DNA of 64,000 nt. It comes from Thermodesulfobacteriota bacterium. GTDB taxonomy: Bacteria > Desulfobacterota > Desulfobacteria > Desulfobacterales > C00003060. Position 1 is the first letter of the stretch. Every line of letters begins with the position of its first letter. The stretch is from positions 68,259 through 132,258 of the forward strand of contig JAXHVD010000013.1 in the NCBI GenBank assembly GCA_034189385.1, in the 5' to 3' direction. Shown here piece after piece: positions 38,787-41,133 of the stretch. The position numbers and the translations under genes are program-made. The notes beneath the pieces are model-generated. The model was given only the letters and a program-made list of their open reading frames with translations, did no database searches and was not told the origin of the DNA.

Positions 38787-38807
38787 ATGCCGGATCAAGT
38801 CCGGCAT
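38787..38807. repeat. REP-like palindrome (second copy of the TTCTGGAT.CCGG motif)
   Basis: ATGCCGGA-TCAAG-TCCGGCAT is a perfect 8-bp stem. It shares the 5' context (A)GTTCTGGAT(G/C)CCGG with 38639-38653. Confidence 0.45.
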
Positions 38808-38966
38808 GGTGATTCAAGGACTTTTTGCGACGCTGTCAACGTTAAGAAGGTGGGAGAAATCTACAGATGCAAAGCCGGTGGGAATGTCGACGAGGTGCTG
38901 GAGGTCGACTGGGGGAAACTGGTATGCTGCGGCCAACCAATTGTATTGGAAAAACCAGGAGAATAG
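38787..38966 (+). CDS. Desulforedoxin-like small ORF with a degenerate metal site (possibly a pseudogene)
   Basis: The frame reads ...AVNVKKVGEIYRCKAGGNVDEVLEVDWGKLVCCGQPIVLEKPGE*, compared with dx at 16247 ([43 protein letters not shown]). The second Cys of C-x2-C is replaced (CKAG). The only in-frame ATG (38787) lies inside a palindrome. Confidence 0.4.
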   Translation: MPDQVRHGDSRTFCDAVNVKKVGEIYRCKAGGNVDEVLEVDWGKLVCCGQPIVLEKPGE

Positions 38967-38976
38967 GAGGTACACC

Positions 38977-40014
38977 ATGTCACAAGCGAAGCCAGGAATT
39001 AATCGTAGGGATTTCATTAAGTTGGGGGCACTCGCTGCTGGCGGGGCGGCTCTTTCAGGAAGGATACCCTTTGCGCAGGCCGCTGGCACAAGCGAAGAGC
39101 CTGACAGCCCCATCTATTTGGCCCTCAACATGTCTAAAGTGGCCAACAACGAGGAGAGCTTTCGCCTGATGAAAAAAGTCGGTCCCAAGGTGTGCATCAC
39201 CACGGCCTCCCATCCCGGATTTGTAGGATTTCAGGCCAACATCCAGACCGGCATCCTCCCCTTAGCTGGTCGGTATGGTGGAGGAAAGGTGCACATGGAA
39301 AAAGAACTCAACCCCATTCGCAACTACCAGTATACCATGTGGAAACGATGGGAAGATCATGACGATTTTCATGCCAAACAATTCAACAGGACCTTTGAAC
39401 TGTGCGGCAGTTGTCTTTCCATGGTCGTTGAAGGGCCGTGGGAGCCTGTGTACAGGATCGTGAAGGCCAAAATGCCTCCCGTGCGGTCCATGGGTCAGAT
39501 TACCGACCTTGGAGTCGACATGCAGCACAAAAAAGAGTTTATCCGTTTTGCCACCCCCATGCGCTGTGTAGCCATGGCAGAGCACACGGTGAAGACTGGC
39601 AGAGAGGCTGATTTTGAACAAGGGGCCATTGCCACCATGGAGGCCCTGTCCGATTCCACAGGATTTCTCGGGTACATGATTCTAAAGCAGATGGGCGTTT
39701 GTGCCTTGGGGAGTTTCATGCTGGATCCCCAATCCATGGGGGAGGCATTGCAGACTCTGGGCGCGAATCCTCCAAAAGATCCCAAACCCCTTTTCAAGAC
39801 ACCCGAGGCCATGCCGAGCCCTCCGGAGTACCTGATCCATACTGAATGGGACGCCGTGGAGATGGCCCGACTCGGTTTTGCCAAGGTCCTGGTCAATCAC
39901 AGGATCAAGAAAATACATGACGATGGGGTCATGGCACACCTTATGCGGGGACCGTACATCATGTTCTTCCAGCCTATGATGGAAGAGCCGGGCTGGCGGG
40001 CCATGCTTGGGTAG
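38977..40014 (+). CDS. sor: Sulfur oxygenase reductase (SOR) homologue with a Tat signal peptide
   Basis: ATG 38977 follows TAGGAGG. The Tat leader is MSQAKPGINRRDFIKLGALAAGGAALSGRIPFAQA. The mature part matches SOR (VGPKVCITTASHPGFVGFQANIQTGILP..RYGGGK; HDDFH; LCGSC; GPWEP; YGPYI-like GPYIMFFQPMMEE). The 79 codons upstream in the ORF track are rejected. Confidence 0.85.
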   Translation: MSQAKPGINRRDFIKLGALAAGGAALSGRIPFAQAAGTSEEPDSPIYLALNMSKVANNEESFRLMKKVGPKVCITTASHPGFVGFQANIQTGILPLAGRYGGGKVHMEKELNPIRNYQYTMWKRWEDHDDFHAKQFNRTFELCGSCLSMVVEGPWEPVYRIVKAKMPPVRSMGQITDLGVDMQHKKEFIRFATPMRCVAMAEHTVKTGREADFEQGAIATMEALSDSTGFLGYMILKQMGVCALGSFMLDPQSMGEALQTLGANPPKDPKPLFKTPEAMPSPPEYLIHTEWDAVEMARLGFAKVLVNHRIKKIHDDGVMAHLMRGPYIMFFQPMMEEPGWRAMLG

Positions 40015-40075
40015 TGAAAGCAGCGGAAAGGCTTGAGAAACAAGTGGCGGATGTAACGTCTAACAGGCAAGAGGT

Positions 40076-40609
40076 ATGAATATGAATCAGACGGCCGGTC
40101 AAAGCGCTTGGAACCCTTATTTGGCAGGCATCTTAAGTGGCTTGGTCCTTGTCCTGTCGGTGTGGGCTTCAGGCAAGTACTTTGGGGCGTCAACCACCTT
40201 TGTTCGCTCCGCAGGCCTCATTGAAAGAGTCTTCACTGCCGAGCGGGTAGCCAAGATGGATTATTTCGTAAAAGAAGTGCCTCAGATCGACTGGCAGTGG
40301 ATGTTTGTAGCAGGCATTTTTTTCGGGTCTCTCTTAGGATCGACCACCTCCGGCAGCTTTCGATGGAAGGCTGTGCCGGACATGTGGGCCGGACGCTTCG
40401 GGCCTAGCCGGTTGAAGCGTGCCGCAGCAGCCTTTCTCGGAGGGCTGGTTGCCATGTTCGGGGCTCGTCTGGCCGATGGGTGACCGAGCGGCCATGGGCT
40501 GGGCGGGTCGGTTCAGCTGGCGGTAAGTGCCTATATTGCTTTGGTCTGCTTCTTCATGGGCGGCATCATCATGGCACGCATCCTCTACAGAGGAGATGGC
40601 CAGAGATGA
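40076..40609 (+). CDS. YeeE/YedE-family sulfur-transport protein, N-half, candidate selenoprotein (UGA at codon 136)
   Basis: ORF 40076-40483 stops at TGA within ...FGARLADG-TGA-PSGHGLGGSVQLAVSAYIALVCFFMGGIIMARILY.... The frame then stays open to TGA 40607-40609, which overlaps the next start (ATGA). The UGA sits where the family has the conserved Cys of G-C-x-S-G-H-G. Confidence 0.6.
40498..40517 (+). promoter_or_regulatory. SECIS-like hairpin downstream of UGA 40481
   Basis: GCUGGGC (40498-40504) pairs with GUUCAGC (40511-40517), giving 5 Watson-Crick and 2 G-U pairs. The apical loop GGGUCG contains GGUC at nt 26-29 from the U of UGA. Confidence 0.4.
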
Positions 40610-41133
40610 CAATCCTAACATACGGTTTGGTCACAGGGGTGCTTTTTGGCTTCTTCTTGCAGAAGGCCAGGGTCATTCGTTATGACAAGCAGCTCGGTGC
40701 CCTGCGCCTGAAAGACATGACAATCGTCAAGTTCATGTTTTCCACCGTCTTGACCGGGATGGTTGGCGTGTACCTATTTGTGGATCTCGGCTTGGCCCAA
40801 CTTTCTGTTAAAACGACAGTCTTGGGCGGCAACATCCTTGGCGGATTGATTTTTGGTCTTGGCTGGGGTTTACTGGGCTACTGCCCTGGCACAGCAGTGG
40901 GTGCCTTGGGTGAAGGCAGATGGGACGGGTTGTGGGGTGTCCTTGGCATGCTTGCTGGTGCGGCGCTCTTTGCCGAGGCCTATCCGATTTTCAAGGGGAC
41001 CGTTCTCACGTGGGGCGCTTTCGACAAGATCACCCTACCTCAGATTCTGAGGGTGAACCATTGGATTGTCATCGGCCTCTTTGTTGTCGGAGGATTGAGC
41101 CTCTTTGGGTGGTTTGAAAAGAAGGGCTTGTGA
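40606..41133 (+). CDS. YeeE/YedE-family sulfur-transport protein, C-half
   Basis: 175 aa with four TM helices and the motif GLGWGLLGYCPGTAVGALGEG. Its start overlaps the stop of the extended upstream gene. Confidence 0.8.
   Translation: MTILTYGLVTGVLFGFFLQKARVIRYDKQLGALRLKDMTIVKFMFSTVLTGMVGVYLFVDLGLAQLSVKTTVLGGNILGGLIFGLGWGLLGYCPGTAVGALGEGRWDGLWGVLGMLAGAALFAEAYPIFKGTVLTWGAFDKITLPQILRVNHWIVIGLFVVGGLSLFGWFEKKGL

What the first reader, a model, noticed from the sequence alone, without database searches (positions are those of the whole stretch)
38787..41133. Possible periplasmic sulfur-conversion and uptake module: dx-like ORF, Tat-SOR and a Sec-containing split YeeE/YedE channel
Four co-directional, tightly spaced genes sit together. 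They are a desulforedoxin-like ORF whose stop TAG is part of the SOR RBS, Tat-SOR, yedE-N (61 nt later) and yedE-C (ATGA overlap). SOR products are sulfite, thiosulfate and sulfide, and YeeE-type proteins are established thiosulfate/sulfur-compound importers. The juxtaposition therefore suggests that exported SOR generates soluble S species which are then taken up, with a Cys/Sec relay in the channel. I am not aware of a described SOR-YeeE/YedE system. The cysE-cysK-nifU-nifS cluster 20 kb downstream could be a sink for the imported sulfur.
Basis: inference. Interest (0 to 1): 0.8.

Follow-up and report, generated by a model that had tools for sequence, protein, structure and literature searches.

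The report
Exported sulfur oxygenase with selenocysteine sulfur channel
An uncultured sulfate-reducer-type bacterium (Thermodesulfobacteriota) carries a probable three-gene operon pairing a sulfur oxygenase reductase that has an export signal with a two-piece, selenocysteine-containing sulfur channel, and the same pairing recurs in many anaerobes, which gives a testable idea of what this oxygen-using enzyme does in them.

Summary
The sequence features are real. A sulfur oxygenase reductase (SOR, 38977-40014) carries a twin-arginine (Tat) signal and all catalytic residues. It is followed by two half-size YeeE/YedE genes (40076-40609 and 40606-41133). The first has an in-frame TGA where homologues have Cys.

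The "desulforedoxin-like ORF" is a decaying copy, not a fourth partner. It lacks one Cys ligand and the family's start codon. Its orthologue in the closest contig has two stop codons (dN/dS 0.76). An intact desulforedoxin gene lies at 16247-16381.

The SOR-YedE linkage is conserved: 24-25 of 73 anaerobe-clade SOR loci, in at least five arrangements, and 0 of 14 in the outgroup clade that includes the known aerobic sulfur oxidizers.

Half of the linked loci encode a signal-less, cytoplasmic SOR downstream of the pair. Split YedE1E2 proteins are experimentally zero-valent-sulfur importers, not thiosulfate importers.

Best reading: a zero-valent-sulfur handling module whose enzyme moved to the periplasm in this lineage. 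Sec-containing YeeE/YedE and SOR in Desulfobacterota are already known. The pairing and the Tat-SOR clade appear undescribed in the library searched. The distant cysK-nifU-nifS link has no support.

The parts
38787..38966 (+). Decayed desulforedoxin copy (probable pseudogene). The homologous stretch is 38832-38966. Its TAG overlaps the SOR ribosome-binding site.
   Evidence: Pfam Desulfoferrod_N 3.2e-11. Lost ATG and lost second Cys; the L081 orthologue has two stops. dN/dS 0.76 against L081.
38977..40014 (+). Sulfur oxygenase reductase homologue, 345 aa. Twin-arginine signal peptide at residues 1-35 (38977-39081).
   Evidence: Pfam SOR 1.8e-142 and Tat signal models. C73, H128, H132, C143, C146 and E156 invariant in 15 sequences. 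PDB SOR 6qpa 1.4e-92. RRxF[IML]K conserved in 28 loci.
40076..40609 (+). Half-size YeeE/YedE protein, PmpA/YedE1 type, 177 aa, with selenocysteine at residue 136.
   Evidence: PF04143 profile 170-310, 6.5e-22. Residue 136 aligns with Cys293 of S. thermophila TsuA.
40481..40483 (+). In-frame TGA read as selenocysteine (motif D-G-U-P-S-G-H-G).
   Evidence: Aligned to TGC/TGT in 16 homologues and to TGA in L003, L006, L081 and L086, with conserved protein after it. GUxSG is the motif of the listed YeeE/YedE selenoprotein family (PMC13188914).
40495..40520 (+). Candidate SECIS hairpin starting about 12-16 nt after the UGA.
   Evidence: -12.0 kcal/mol; only 1.5% of synonymous recodings are as stable. 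Present in all five UGA forms. Also present in the Cys form L087, and Rfam found nothing, so inconclusive.
40606..41133 (+). Half-size YeeE/YedE protein, PmpB/YedE2 type, 175 aa. Its ATG overlaps the preceding stop (ATGA).
   Evidence: PF04143 profile 16-145 and DUF6691. Cys93 aligns with Cys91 of TsuA.
41190..41226 (+). Two overlapping terminator-like hairpins with T runs; probable end of the operon.
   Evidence: No such site between SOR and the YedE genes.

Best explanation
SOR, YedE1 and YedE2 form one operon for handling zero-valent sulfur (elemental sulfur and polysulfide). The window comes from an uncultured Thermodesulfobacteriota bacterium.

Shown by sequence and comparison:
- The enzyme keeps the full mononuclear-iron and cysteine active site of SOR.
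- It carries a conserved, cleavable-looking Tat signal.
- The two membrane proteins are the two halves of a YeeE-type channel. Each contributes one of the two essential pore residues: Sec136 at the Cys293 position and Cys93 at the Cys91 position.
- The enzyme-channel pairing is conserved across anaerobe lineages in several gene orders.

Inferred:
- YedE1 and YedE2 form a heterodimer that takes up zero-valent sulfur through a Se-S / S-S exchange relay, as shown for the Cys-Cys YedE1E2 proteins of C. pinatubonensis and S. meliloti.
- Zero-valent sulfur is the substrate of SOR, so the shared currency is the substrate, not the products.
- In the related signal-less clusters the channel feeds a cytoplasmic SOR. 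That SOR sits beside a persulfide-dioxygenase-like MBL-rhodanese, a SoxB-like hydrolase and a TauE sulfite exporter.
- In this lineage the enzyme has been moved to the periplasm. There it would consume O2 and sulfur outside the cytoplasm, making sulfite, thiosulfate and sulfide, while the channel imports part of the same sulfur pool.
- The likely role is coping with O2 and sulfur at oxic-sulfidic interfaces. This fits the stress-gene company: HSP20, desulforedoxin and an AhpF-like reductase here; ferritin-like, SufBC-like and MauG-like di-haem proteins in sister loci.
For: - Gene identities and active-site residues.
- Tat motif in 28 loci.
- Sec/Cys alignment.
- Linkage: 24-25 of 73 anaerobe-clade loci and 0 of 14 outgroup loci, at five or more separate tree positions. 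Arrangements seen: downstream, upstream, convergent, and 2-4 kb away.
- Cluster content next to cytoplasmic SORs: MBL+rhodanese, SoxB-like (TIGR04486 5e-105, below cut-off), TauE and a DASS permease.
- Operon signals.
- Experimental function of split YedE1E2 as a zero-valent-sulfur importer needing both Cys: PMC10812762.
- PmpA and PmpB as the C- and N-terminal halves with Cys293 and Cys91: PMC11582611.
- Independent contigs L081 and L086 show the same SOR, YedE1(TGA), YedE2 order.
Against: - No expression, localisation or activity data exist for any member of this clade.
- With the enzyme outside and an importer in the membrane, the two would compete for substrate rather than act in series, so the coupling in the Tat version is less obvious than in the cytoplasmic version.
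- The window's proteins are 175-177 aa, against about 130-140 aa for the characterised YedE1E2/PmpAB. Orthology was not tested.
- Characterised SORs are 24-subunit hollow spheres (established knowledge and PDB chain counts). It is unclear how such a particle would be exported or assembled in the periplasm.
- More than half of the SOR loci lack the pair.
- The SOR scores below NCBIfam's equivalog cut-off (309.5 against 400).
Confidence: 0.5

Rival explanations
1. Periplasmic SOR converts sulfur to thiosulfate and sulfite, and the YedE pair imports these products like TsuA/YeeE. They then serve assimilation or act as electron acceptors for dissimilatory reduction.
For: - SOR carries a Tat signal, and the channel genes lie immediately downstream.
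- Both halves have their best NCBIfam and PDB matches to TsuA.
- Sulfite and thiosulfate would be useful acceptors for a sulfate reducer (established knowledge).
Against: - The same pair is linked to signal-less SORs in 12-13 loci, where products form inside the cell.
- TsuA scores are far below cut-off: 39 against 400 and 32 against 645.
- The position of the third essential TsuA cysteine (Cys22) is Ile.
- No TsuB/TusA-like gene is present in any of the 89 loci (crude motif test).
- In experiments, full-length YedE3 proteins and split YedE1E2 had different substrates (PMC10812762).
Confidence: 0.2
2. There is no direct metabolic coupling. SOR and the YedE pair are simply co-resident members of a loosely organised sulfur and oxidative-stress gene neighbourhood that is often rearranged.
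For: - About two thirds of SOR loci lack the pair.
- The window itself shows heavy rearrangement around the module: a 1.8-kb duplication, a 2.5-kb insertion and a pseudogene.
- Neighbours differ between subclades.
Against: - Gaps of 16-65 nt in most linked loci, with the pair on the same strand as SOR in all but one linked locus.
- The pair recurs in different orders and at different tree positions.
- Both YedE1 and YedE2 were found together in only 212 of 8671 surveyed genomes (PMC10812762). Adjacency in a third of loci is therefore far above chance.
Confidence: 0.15
3. The anaerobe-clade SOR does not use O2. It catalyses an oxygen-independent disproportionation or reduction of sulfur or polysulfide, with the YedE pair moving sulfur species as part of anaerobic sulfur energy metabolism.
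For: - The hosts are strict-anaerobe lineages: Desulfobacterota, Syntrophorhabdus, Smithella, Anaerolineales.
- The role of SOR in such organisms is described as unclear (PMC6137086).
- YedE-type genes are candidate markers of sulfur disproportionation (PMC12998232).
Against: - The 2-His-1-carboxylate iron site and all three cysteines of the oxygenase are invariant.
- Identity to characterised O2-dependent SORs is about 50%.
- Neighbours include O2-dependent or O2-stress proteins: MBL persulfide-dioxygenase-like, MauG-like peroxidase, ferritin-like, catalase-related.
Confidence: 0.1

Closest known systems
Sulfur oxygenase reductase of Acidianus, Aquifex and Halothiobacillus (PDB 2cb2, 3bxv, 6qpa)
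   Same: Full-length SOR domain, E 1e-75 to 1e-92. The cysteine and His/His/Glu iron-site residues are conserved.
   Different: It carries a 35-residue Tat signal, whereas characterised SORs are described as cytoplasmic (PMC12345210). The host is an anaerobe lineage. It falls below the NCBIfam equivalog cut-off. It is linked to a YedE pair, which the outgroup-clade loci (including aerobic sulfur oxidizers) lack.
YedE1E2 / PmpAB split YeeE-family transporters (C. pinatubonensis, S. meliloti, Serratia)
   Same: Two adjacent half-size genes in the order C-half then N-half. Each has one conserved pore residue at the TsuA Cys293 and Cys91 positions (PMC11582611). They are linked to PDO-rhodanese and TauE in relatives, as in the bigR/blh operon (PMC10812762, PMC5823870).
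   Different: Selenocysteine replaces the YedE1 cysteine. The proteins are about 40 residues longer. They are paired with SOR rather than only with PDO or SQR. Transport has not been tested.
TsuA(YeeE)-TsuB(YeeD) thiosulfate uptake system (PDB 6leo, 8j4c)
   Same: Same fold family, and the only solved relatives.
   Different: TsuA is a single nine-helix polypeptide with three Cys and a TusA-like partner. Here the protein is split, it has two pore residues, and no TsuB is nearby.
YeeE/YedE selenoprotein family (GUxSG)
   Same: Same Pfam family and the same Sec motif (PMC13188914).
   Different: The review lists the family only as a predicted transporter selenoprotein. The context with SOR is not mentioned.

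Membership tests
Sulfur oxygenase reductase (PF07682) | Full-length match to the SOR domain model | tested here: met
   474 bits, profile 2-300 of 300.
Sulfur oxygenase reductase (PF07682) | NCBIfam equivalog NF047630 cut-off (400 bits) | tested here: not met
   309.5 bits. It is a divergent subfamily.
Sulfur oxygenase reductase (PF07682) | Active-site Cys31 and the iron ligands His86, His90 and Glu114, plus Cys101 and Cys104 (A. ambivalens numbering, from my own knowledge) | tested here: met
   C73, H128, H132, E156, C143 and C146 have the right spacing and are invariant in alignment A1. Aligned to PDB SOR.
Sulfur oxygenase reductase (PF07682) | Cytoplasmic location and 24-subunit hollow particle | tested here: not met
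   A Tat signal is present. Oligomeric state was not tested.
Sulfur oxygenase reductase (PF07682) | O2-dependent disproportionation of sulfur | not testable with these tools
   Needs an enzyme assay.
Tat-exported protein | S/T-R-R-x-F-L-K motif, hydrophobic core and A-x-A site at the N-terminus | tested here: met
   N-R-R-D-F-I-K-LGALAAGGAAL...A-Q-A. TIGR01409 20.5 bits against 16.7; Pfam 21.6 against 22.7, just under. The motif is conserved in 28 loci.
Tat-exported protein | Actual export | not testable with these tools
   Needs reporter fusion or cell fractionation.
Split YeeE family (PmpAB / YedE1E2) | Two adjacent half-size genes matching the C- and N-terminal halves of YeeE | tested here: met
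   PF04143 profile 170-310 and 16-145. ATGA overlap.
Split YeeE family (PmpAB / YedE1E2) | One conserved Cys per half, at the TsuA Cys293 and Cys91 positions | tested here: met
   Sec136 aligns with Cys293 and Cys93 with Cys91.
Split YeeE family (PmpAB / YedE1E2) | About 130-140 aa and four helices each; import of zero-valent sulfur | not tested
   The proteins are 177 and 175 aa. Helix count and transport were not examined.
TsuA/TsuB thiosulfate importer | Single polypeptide above the NCBIfam cut-offs, three conserved Cys, adjacent TusA-like TsuB | tested here: not met
   39 bits against 400 and 32 against 645. The protein is split. The Cys22 position is Ile. No CPxP small ORF is present in 89 loci.
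Bacterial selenoprotein | In-frame UGA aligned with Cys in homologues, with conserved coding sequence after it | tested here: met
Bacterial selenoprotein | SECIS hairpin just downstream of the UGA | tested here: inconclusive
   The hairpin at 40495-40520 is shared by five UGA forms and is more stable than 98.5% of recodings. It also occurs in one Cys form, shows no two-sided compensatory changes, and has no Rfam match.
Bacterial selenoprotein | selA, selB, selC and selD in the genome | not testable with these tools
   They are not in the 64-kb window, and the rest of the MAG was not available.
Desulforedoxin | Four Cys ligands (CxxC...CC), own start codon, purifying selection | tested here: not met
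   C-K-A-G in place of CxxC. The conserved ATG is lost. dN/dS 0.76, and the orthologue has two stops.

The most novel reading that the evidence does not exclude
Sulfate-reducer-type anaerobes export an oxygen-dependent sulfur-disproportionating enzyme into the periplasm and couple it to a selenocysteine-based sulfur channel. During O2 exposure in sulfidic sediment they would burn O2 on elemental sulfur outside the cytoplasm. This would turn an oxidant and a toxic solid into sulfite and thiosulfate, which they can respire, while importing activated sulfur. That would be a hitherto unrecognised O2-defence and cryptic sulfur-cycling route, and the first periplasmic SOR.
Probability: 0.25. Interest if true: 0.8.

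Novelty: new variant of a known kind. Interest (0 to 1): 0.6.

Why it matters
SOR genes in strict anaerobes have been noted for over a decade with the comment that their role is unclear (PMC6137086). In marine sediment, most SOR-bearing genomes are Desulfobacterota (PMC12345210).

A conserved partnership with a channel that imports the enzyme's own substrate gives concrete, testable hypotheses for that open question. So does a whole subclade in which the enzyme carries an export signal.

The Sec-for-Cys swap at a pore residue shown to be essential also offers a natural experiment on how YeeE-type channels handle sulfur.

Tried and rejected
- Rfam gathering scan of the whole window found nothing, so no known SECIS or riboswitch model applies.
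- Folding 71 nt around the UGA gave an unremarkable z-score of -0.29. Only the narrower hairpin stands out, against synonymous recodings.
- An exact-sequence look-up of the window's SOR found no record. The source was identified instead through FtsH, which is 100% identical to a protein of an NCBI Thermodesulfobacteriota MAG.
- I looked for the Dx-like ORF next to SOR in 80 genome loci. Only L026 (2 kb away, ordinary 4-Cys sequence) and L065 (opposite strand, also 3-Cys) matched. A conserved Dx partnership was therefore rejected. An intact Dx does sit 20 nt after SOR in L082-L085.
- A motif search for TusA/TsuB-like small proteins gave only spurious hits.
- One broad literature query returned nothing relevant. 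Queries pairing SOR with YeeE, YedE, twin-arginine, Tat signal or Desulfobacterota found no description of the pairing or of an exported SOR. Veith et al. 2012 is not held.
- The idea that NifS, NifU and CysK at 60.7-63.7 kb are a linked sink was rejected as unsupported.
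Full report
**What is in the sequence**

- The ORF 38787-38966 matches the desulforedoxin-type FeS4 domain (Pfam Desulfoferrod_N 3.2e-11). It ends in a TAG that overlaps the AGGAGG in front of the next gene.
- That gene (38977-40014, 345 aa) matches the sulfur oxygenase reductase (SOR) model end to end (1.8e-142). It starts with N-R-R-D-F-I-K, a hydrophobic stretch and A-Q-A. 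This is recognised by TIGR01409 (20.5 bits, cut-off 16.7) and falls just under the Pfam threshold.
- Sixty-one bases later a YeeE/YedE-family gene begins (40076). It has an in-frame TGA at 40481-40483 and ends at TGA 40607-40609, overlapping the ATG (40606) of a second YeeE/YedE-family gene that ends at 41133.
- Two terminator-like hairpins follow at 41190-41226. None lies between the three genes. Co-transcription is therefore plausible, but it is inferred.

**The SOR**

In an alignment of 15 homologues the residues C73, H128, H132, C143, C146 and E156 are invariant. Their spacing is that of the catalytic cysteine, the two further cysteines and the His/His/Glu iron site of the Acidianus enzyme. 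That numbering comes from my own knowledge; the alignment to solved SORs is, best 6qpa at 1.4e-92.

The protein falls below NCBIfam's equivalog cut-off (309.5 against 400), so it belongs to a divergent subfamily.

A database search found 259 relatives. Many are 345 aa long and start with the same RRxF[IML]K motif. Others are about 310 aa and start directly at the catalytic domain.

Reading upstream of each gene in 80 genome loci confirmed two kinds. About a third carry the twin-arginine signal and the rest have no room for one.

Characterised SORs are described as cytoplasmic (PMC12345210). I found no paper in the held library that mentions a Tat signal on SOR.

**The channel genes**

The first gene matches the C-terminal half of the Sulf_transp profile and the second matches the N-terminal half.

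Against the solved S. thermophila TsuA, the TGA codon aligns with Cys293 and Cys93 of the second protein aligns with Cys91. The position of the third TsuA cysteine (Cys22) is isoleucine.

This is the pattern described for PmpA/PmpB: short proteins proposed to form a heterodimer equivalent to one YeeE (PMC11582611).

For such split pairs (YedE1E2 of C. pinatubonensis and S. meliloti) there is experimental evidence (PMC10812762):
- They speed the import, not the export, of polysulfide and elemental sulfur.
- Both conserved cysteines are required.
- Full-length YedE3 proteins (E. coli and C. pinatubonensis), members of the thiosulfate-importing group, did not show this activity.

**Selenocysteine**

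The TGA aligns with TGC or TGT in 16 homologues and with TGA in four other contigs (L003, L006, L081, L086). The protein stays conserved after it and the gene ends in register with its partner. The motif G-U-x-S-G is that of the YeeE/YedE selenoprotein family already listed in a recent review (PMC13188914).

A hairpin starting about 12-16 nt after the UGA (40495-40520, -12 kcal/mol) is shared by all five UGA forms. It is more stable than 98.5% of synonymous recodings.

A similar hairpin occurs in one Cys form, L087. No two-sided compensatory changes were seen, and Rfam has no match. I therefore call it a candidate SECIS only. The selenocysteine machinery could not be checked within the window.

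**The Dx-like ORF is a relic**

The window holds an intact, canonical desulforedoxin gene at 16247-16381 ([18 protein letters not shown]...VCCGQ; TIGR00319 1.3e-14).

The closest related contig, L081 (SOR 96% identical), has the order zntB, HSP20, Dx, SOR, YedE1(TGA), YedE2, M48 peptidase.

Aligning the copies shows the following:
- The copy in front of SOR has lost the conserved ATG in the window (GCT).
- It has lost the second cysteine ligand in both the window (Gly) and L081 (Asp).
- It carries two in-frame stops in L081.

Between intact copies, non-synonymous change is rare (pN 0.05, pS 0.89). Between the two copies upstream of SOR, dN/dS is 0.76.

An intact Dx also sits 20 nt downstream of SOR in L082-L085. 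Dx and SOR were therefore neighbours in this subclade, but the copy in the finding is decaying. Across 80 genome loci Dx is not a conserved neighbour.

**Is the linkage conserved?**

I collected 80 SOR loci from species-representative genomes and nine contigs from metagenomes.

A split YedE pair lies within 5 kb of SOR as follows:

| SOR locus type | Loci with a YedE pair | Loci examined |
|---|---|---|
| Tat-type | 12 | 28 |
| Signal-less, anaerobe clade | 12-13 | 45 |
| Outgroup clade (includes Acidithiobacillus, Halothiobacillus, Thiomonas) | 0 | 14 |

The gaps are mostly 16-65 nt.

The arrangements differ:
- Pair downstream of Tat-SOR: window, L081, L086, L001, L004, L055, L006, L024.
- Pair upstream of Tat-SOR: L087.
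- Pair convergent with Tat-SOR, together with an MBL-rhodanese: L089.
- Pair 2.6 kb upstream: L003.
- Pair immediately upstream of signal-less SOR: L019, L021, L023, L032, L036, L044, L047, L048.
- Pair downstream of a distant signal-less SOR: L059.

On a neighbour-joining tree these cases fall at five or more separate positions.

Both YedE1 and YedE2 were found together in only 212 of 8671 surveyed genomes (PMC10812762). The association is therefore far above chance, even allowing for shared ancestry. The hosts are named Desulfobacterales, Syntrophorhabdus, Smithella, Anaerolineales, Myxococcota and others.

**Other neighbours**

Next to signal-less SORs the recurring set is an MBL-fold protein with rhodanese domains, the YedE pair, SOR, a SoxB-like metallophosphoesterase (TIGR04486 5e-105, below cut-off), a TauE sulfite exporter and a DASS permease. 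This resembles the bigR/blh sulfide-detoxification operon, which also contains YedE1E2 and TauE (PMC10812762, PMC5823870).

Next to Tat-SORs the recurring neighbours are a ferritin-like protein, SufC- and SufB-like proteins, a MauG-like di-haem protein and a DUF255 thioredoxin-fold protein.

In the window the company is HSP20, Dx and an AhpF-like glutaredoxin/thioredoxin-reductase fusion. None of this proves a role, but it leans towards sulfur and oxygen stress.

**How it most likely works**

Three points argue against that direction:
- Half of the linked loci encode a cytoplasmic SOR, where products form inside the cell.
- The pair is of the type shown to import zero-valent sulfur, which is SOR's substrate.
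- It lacks the defining features of the thiosulfate importer: cut-offs missed by a wide margin, split architecture, no TsuB partner.

The reading that covers both kinds of locus is a zero-valent-sulfur handling module. The channel brings sulfur in, and SOR, with PDO-rhodanese in some clusters, consumes it.

In the Tat subclade the enzyme has been moved outside the cytoplasm. There it would remove O2 and sulfur before they reach the cytoplasm, while the channel still imports part of the pool. Selenocysteine at the Cys293 position would be a stronger nucleophile for opening S-S bonds; this last point is inference.

I put this at about 0.5.

**Source and context**

FtsH in the window is 100% identical to a protein of an NCBI metagenome-assembled Thermodesulfobacteriota bacterium, on a 134.5-kb contig.

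The rest of the window encodes ion transporters, efflux systems, glycogen and glycolysis enzymes and Mla proteins. NifS, NifU and CysK at 60.7-63.7 kb are on the other strand and are generic housekeeping genes. Nothing links them to the module.

**Novelty**

Already in the literature:
- SOR in Desulfobacterota (PMC5023260, PMC6137086, PMC12345210).
- Sec-containing YeeE/YedE (PMC13188914).
- The function of split YedE1E2 (PMC10812762).

Not found in the library searched: the conserved SOR-YedE1E2 pairing and the Tat-bearing SOR subclade. The library lacks most subscription journals, so this absence is not proof.

I rate the finding a new variant of a known kind, interest 0.6.

Noticed in passing
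window 13736-15549 and 36755-38571: A 1.8-kb direct repeat, 98% identical, holding a zntB-like gene plus about 840 nt. Compared with contig L081, the window looks like the simple order zntB, HSP20, Dx, SOR split by about 22.6 kb of other genes: AhpF-like, FtsH, BI-1, pyruvate kinase, glycogen phosphorylase, RND efflux, CDF, PGM and DUF481. It could be a real duplication or insertion, or an assembly join in the MAG.
   Followed up: partly
window 16247-16441: An intact 44-aa desulforedoxin gene follows HSP20. After its TAG come the same ribosome-binding site and ATG-TCA-CA(G) as at the SOR start. A 16-codon stub then runs into the AhpF-like gene. This marks the duplication breakpoint inside the first codons of SOR.
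   Followed up: partly
window 40774-41120 and 43265-43611 (ORF 43271-43624): A truncated second copy of the 3' two-thirds of YedE2, 90.5% identical, lies after a DUF389 gene (41293-42318) and an MscS gene (42356-43255). In L081, YedE2 is followed directly by the M48 peptidase, and L081 is closer to the truncated copy (97.6%). About 2.5 kb therefore seems to have been inserted by recombination within YedE2, which makes the working gene a chimera.
   Followed up: partly
window 6507-7010, 12384-12450, 22743-22773, 44664-44699, 46756-47102: Short dispersed intergenic repeats, 79-97% identical, in both orientations. They may be a small repeat element.
   Followed up: no
window 25000-26000: G+C drops to 0.43 against about 0.53 elsewhere, at the start of the outer-membrane factor / HlyD / AcrB efflux genes.
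   Followed up: no
L025:6924-8375 and 12 other loci: A SoxB-like metallophosphoesterase of about 483 aa (TIGR04486 5e-105, below cut-off) lies directly after signal-less SOR genes. In some loci (e.g. L020, L028, L063) it is followed by TauE and a second copy. From its N-terminal sequence I saw no signal peptide, but this was not tested.
   Followed up: partly
L055:1265-5690; also L004, L005, L060: Tat-SOR genes in one subclade are preceded by ferritin-like, SufC-like and SufB-like genes. In L055 a di-haem MauG-like protein that has no Pfam match also lies between them and SOR.
   Followed up: partly
L087:4294-4341: A Cys-form YedE1 (TGC) keeps a strong hairpin (-14.6 kcal/mol) at the same place as the UGA forms. 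It may be a fossil SECIS from a recent Sec-to-Cys change.
   Followed up: no
L065:7071-7154 (minus strand): Another desulforedoxin-like sequence lacking the second Cys (C-N-I-W-G) lies about 160 nt downstream of a SOR gene, on the opposite strand.
   Followed up: no
L035:4076-5089: A DUF389 protein, 50% identical to the window's 41293-42318, lies about 0.9 kb upstream of a signal-less SOR in a Sumerlaeota MAG.
   Followed up: no
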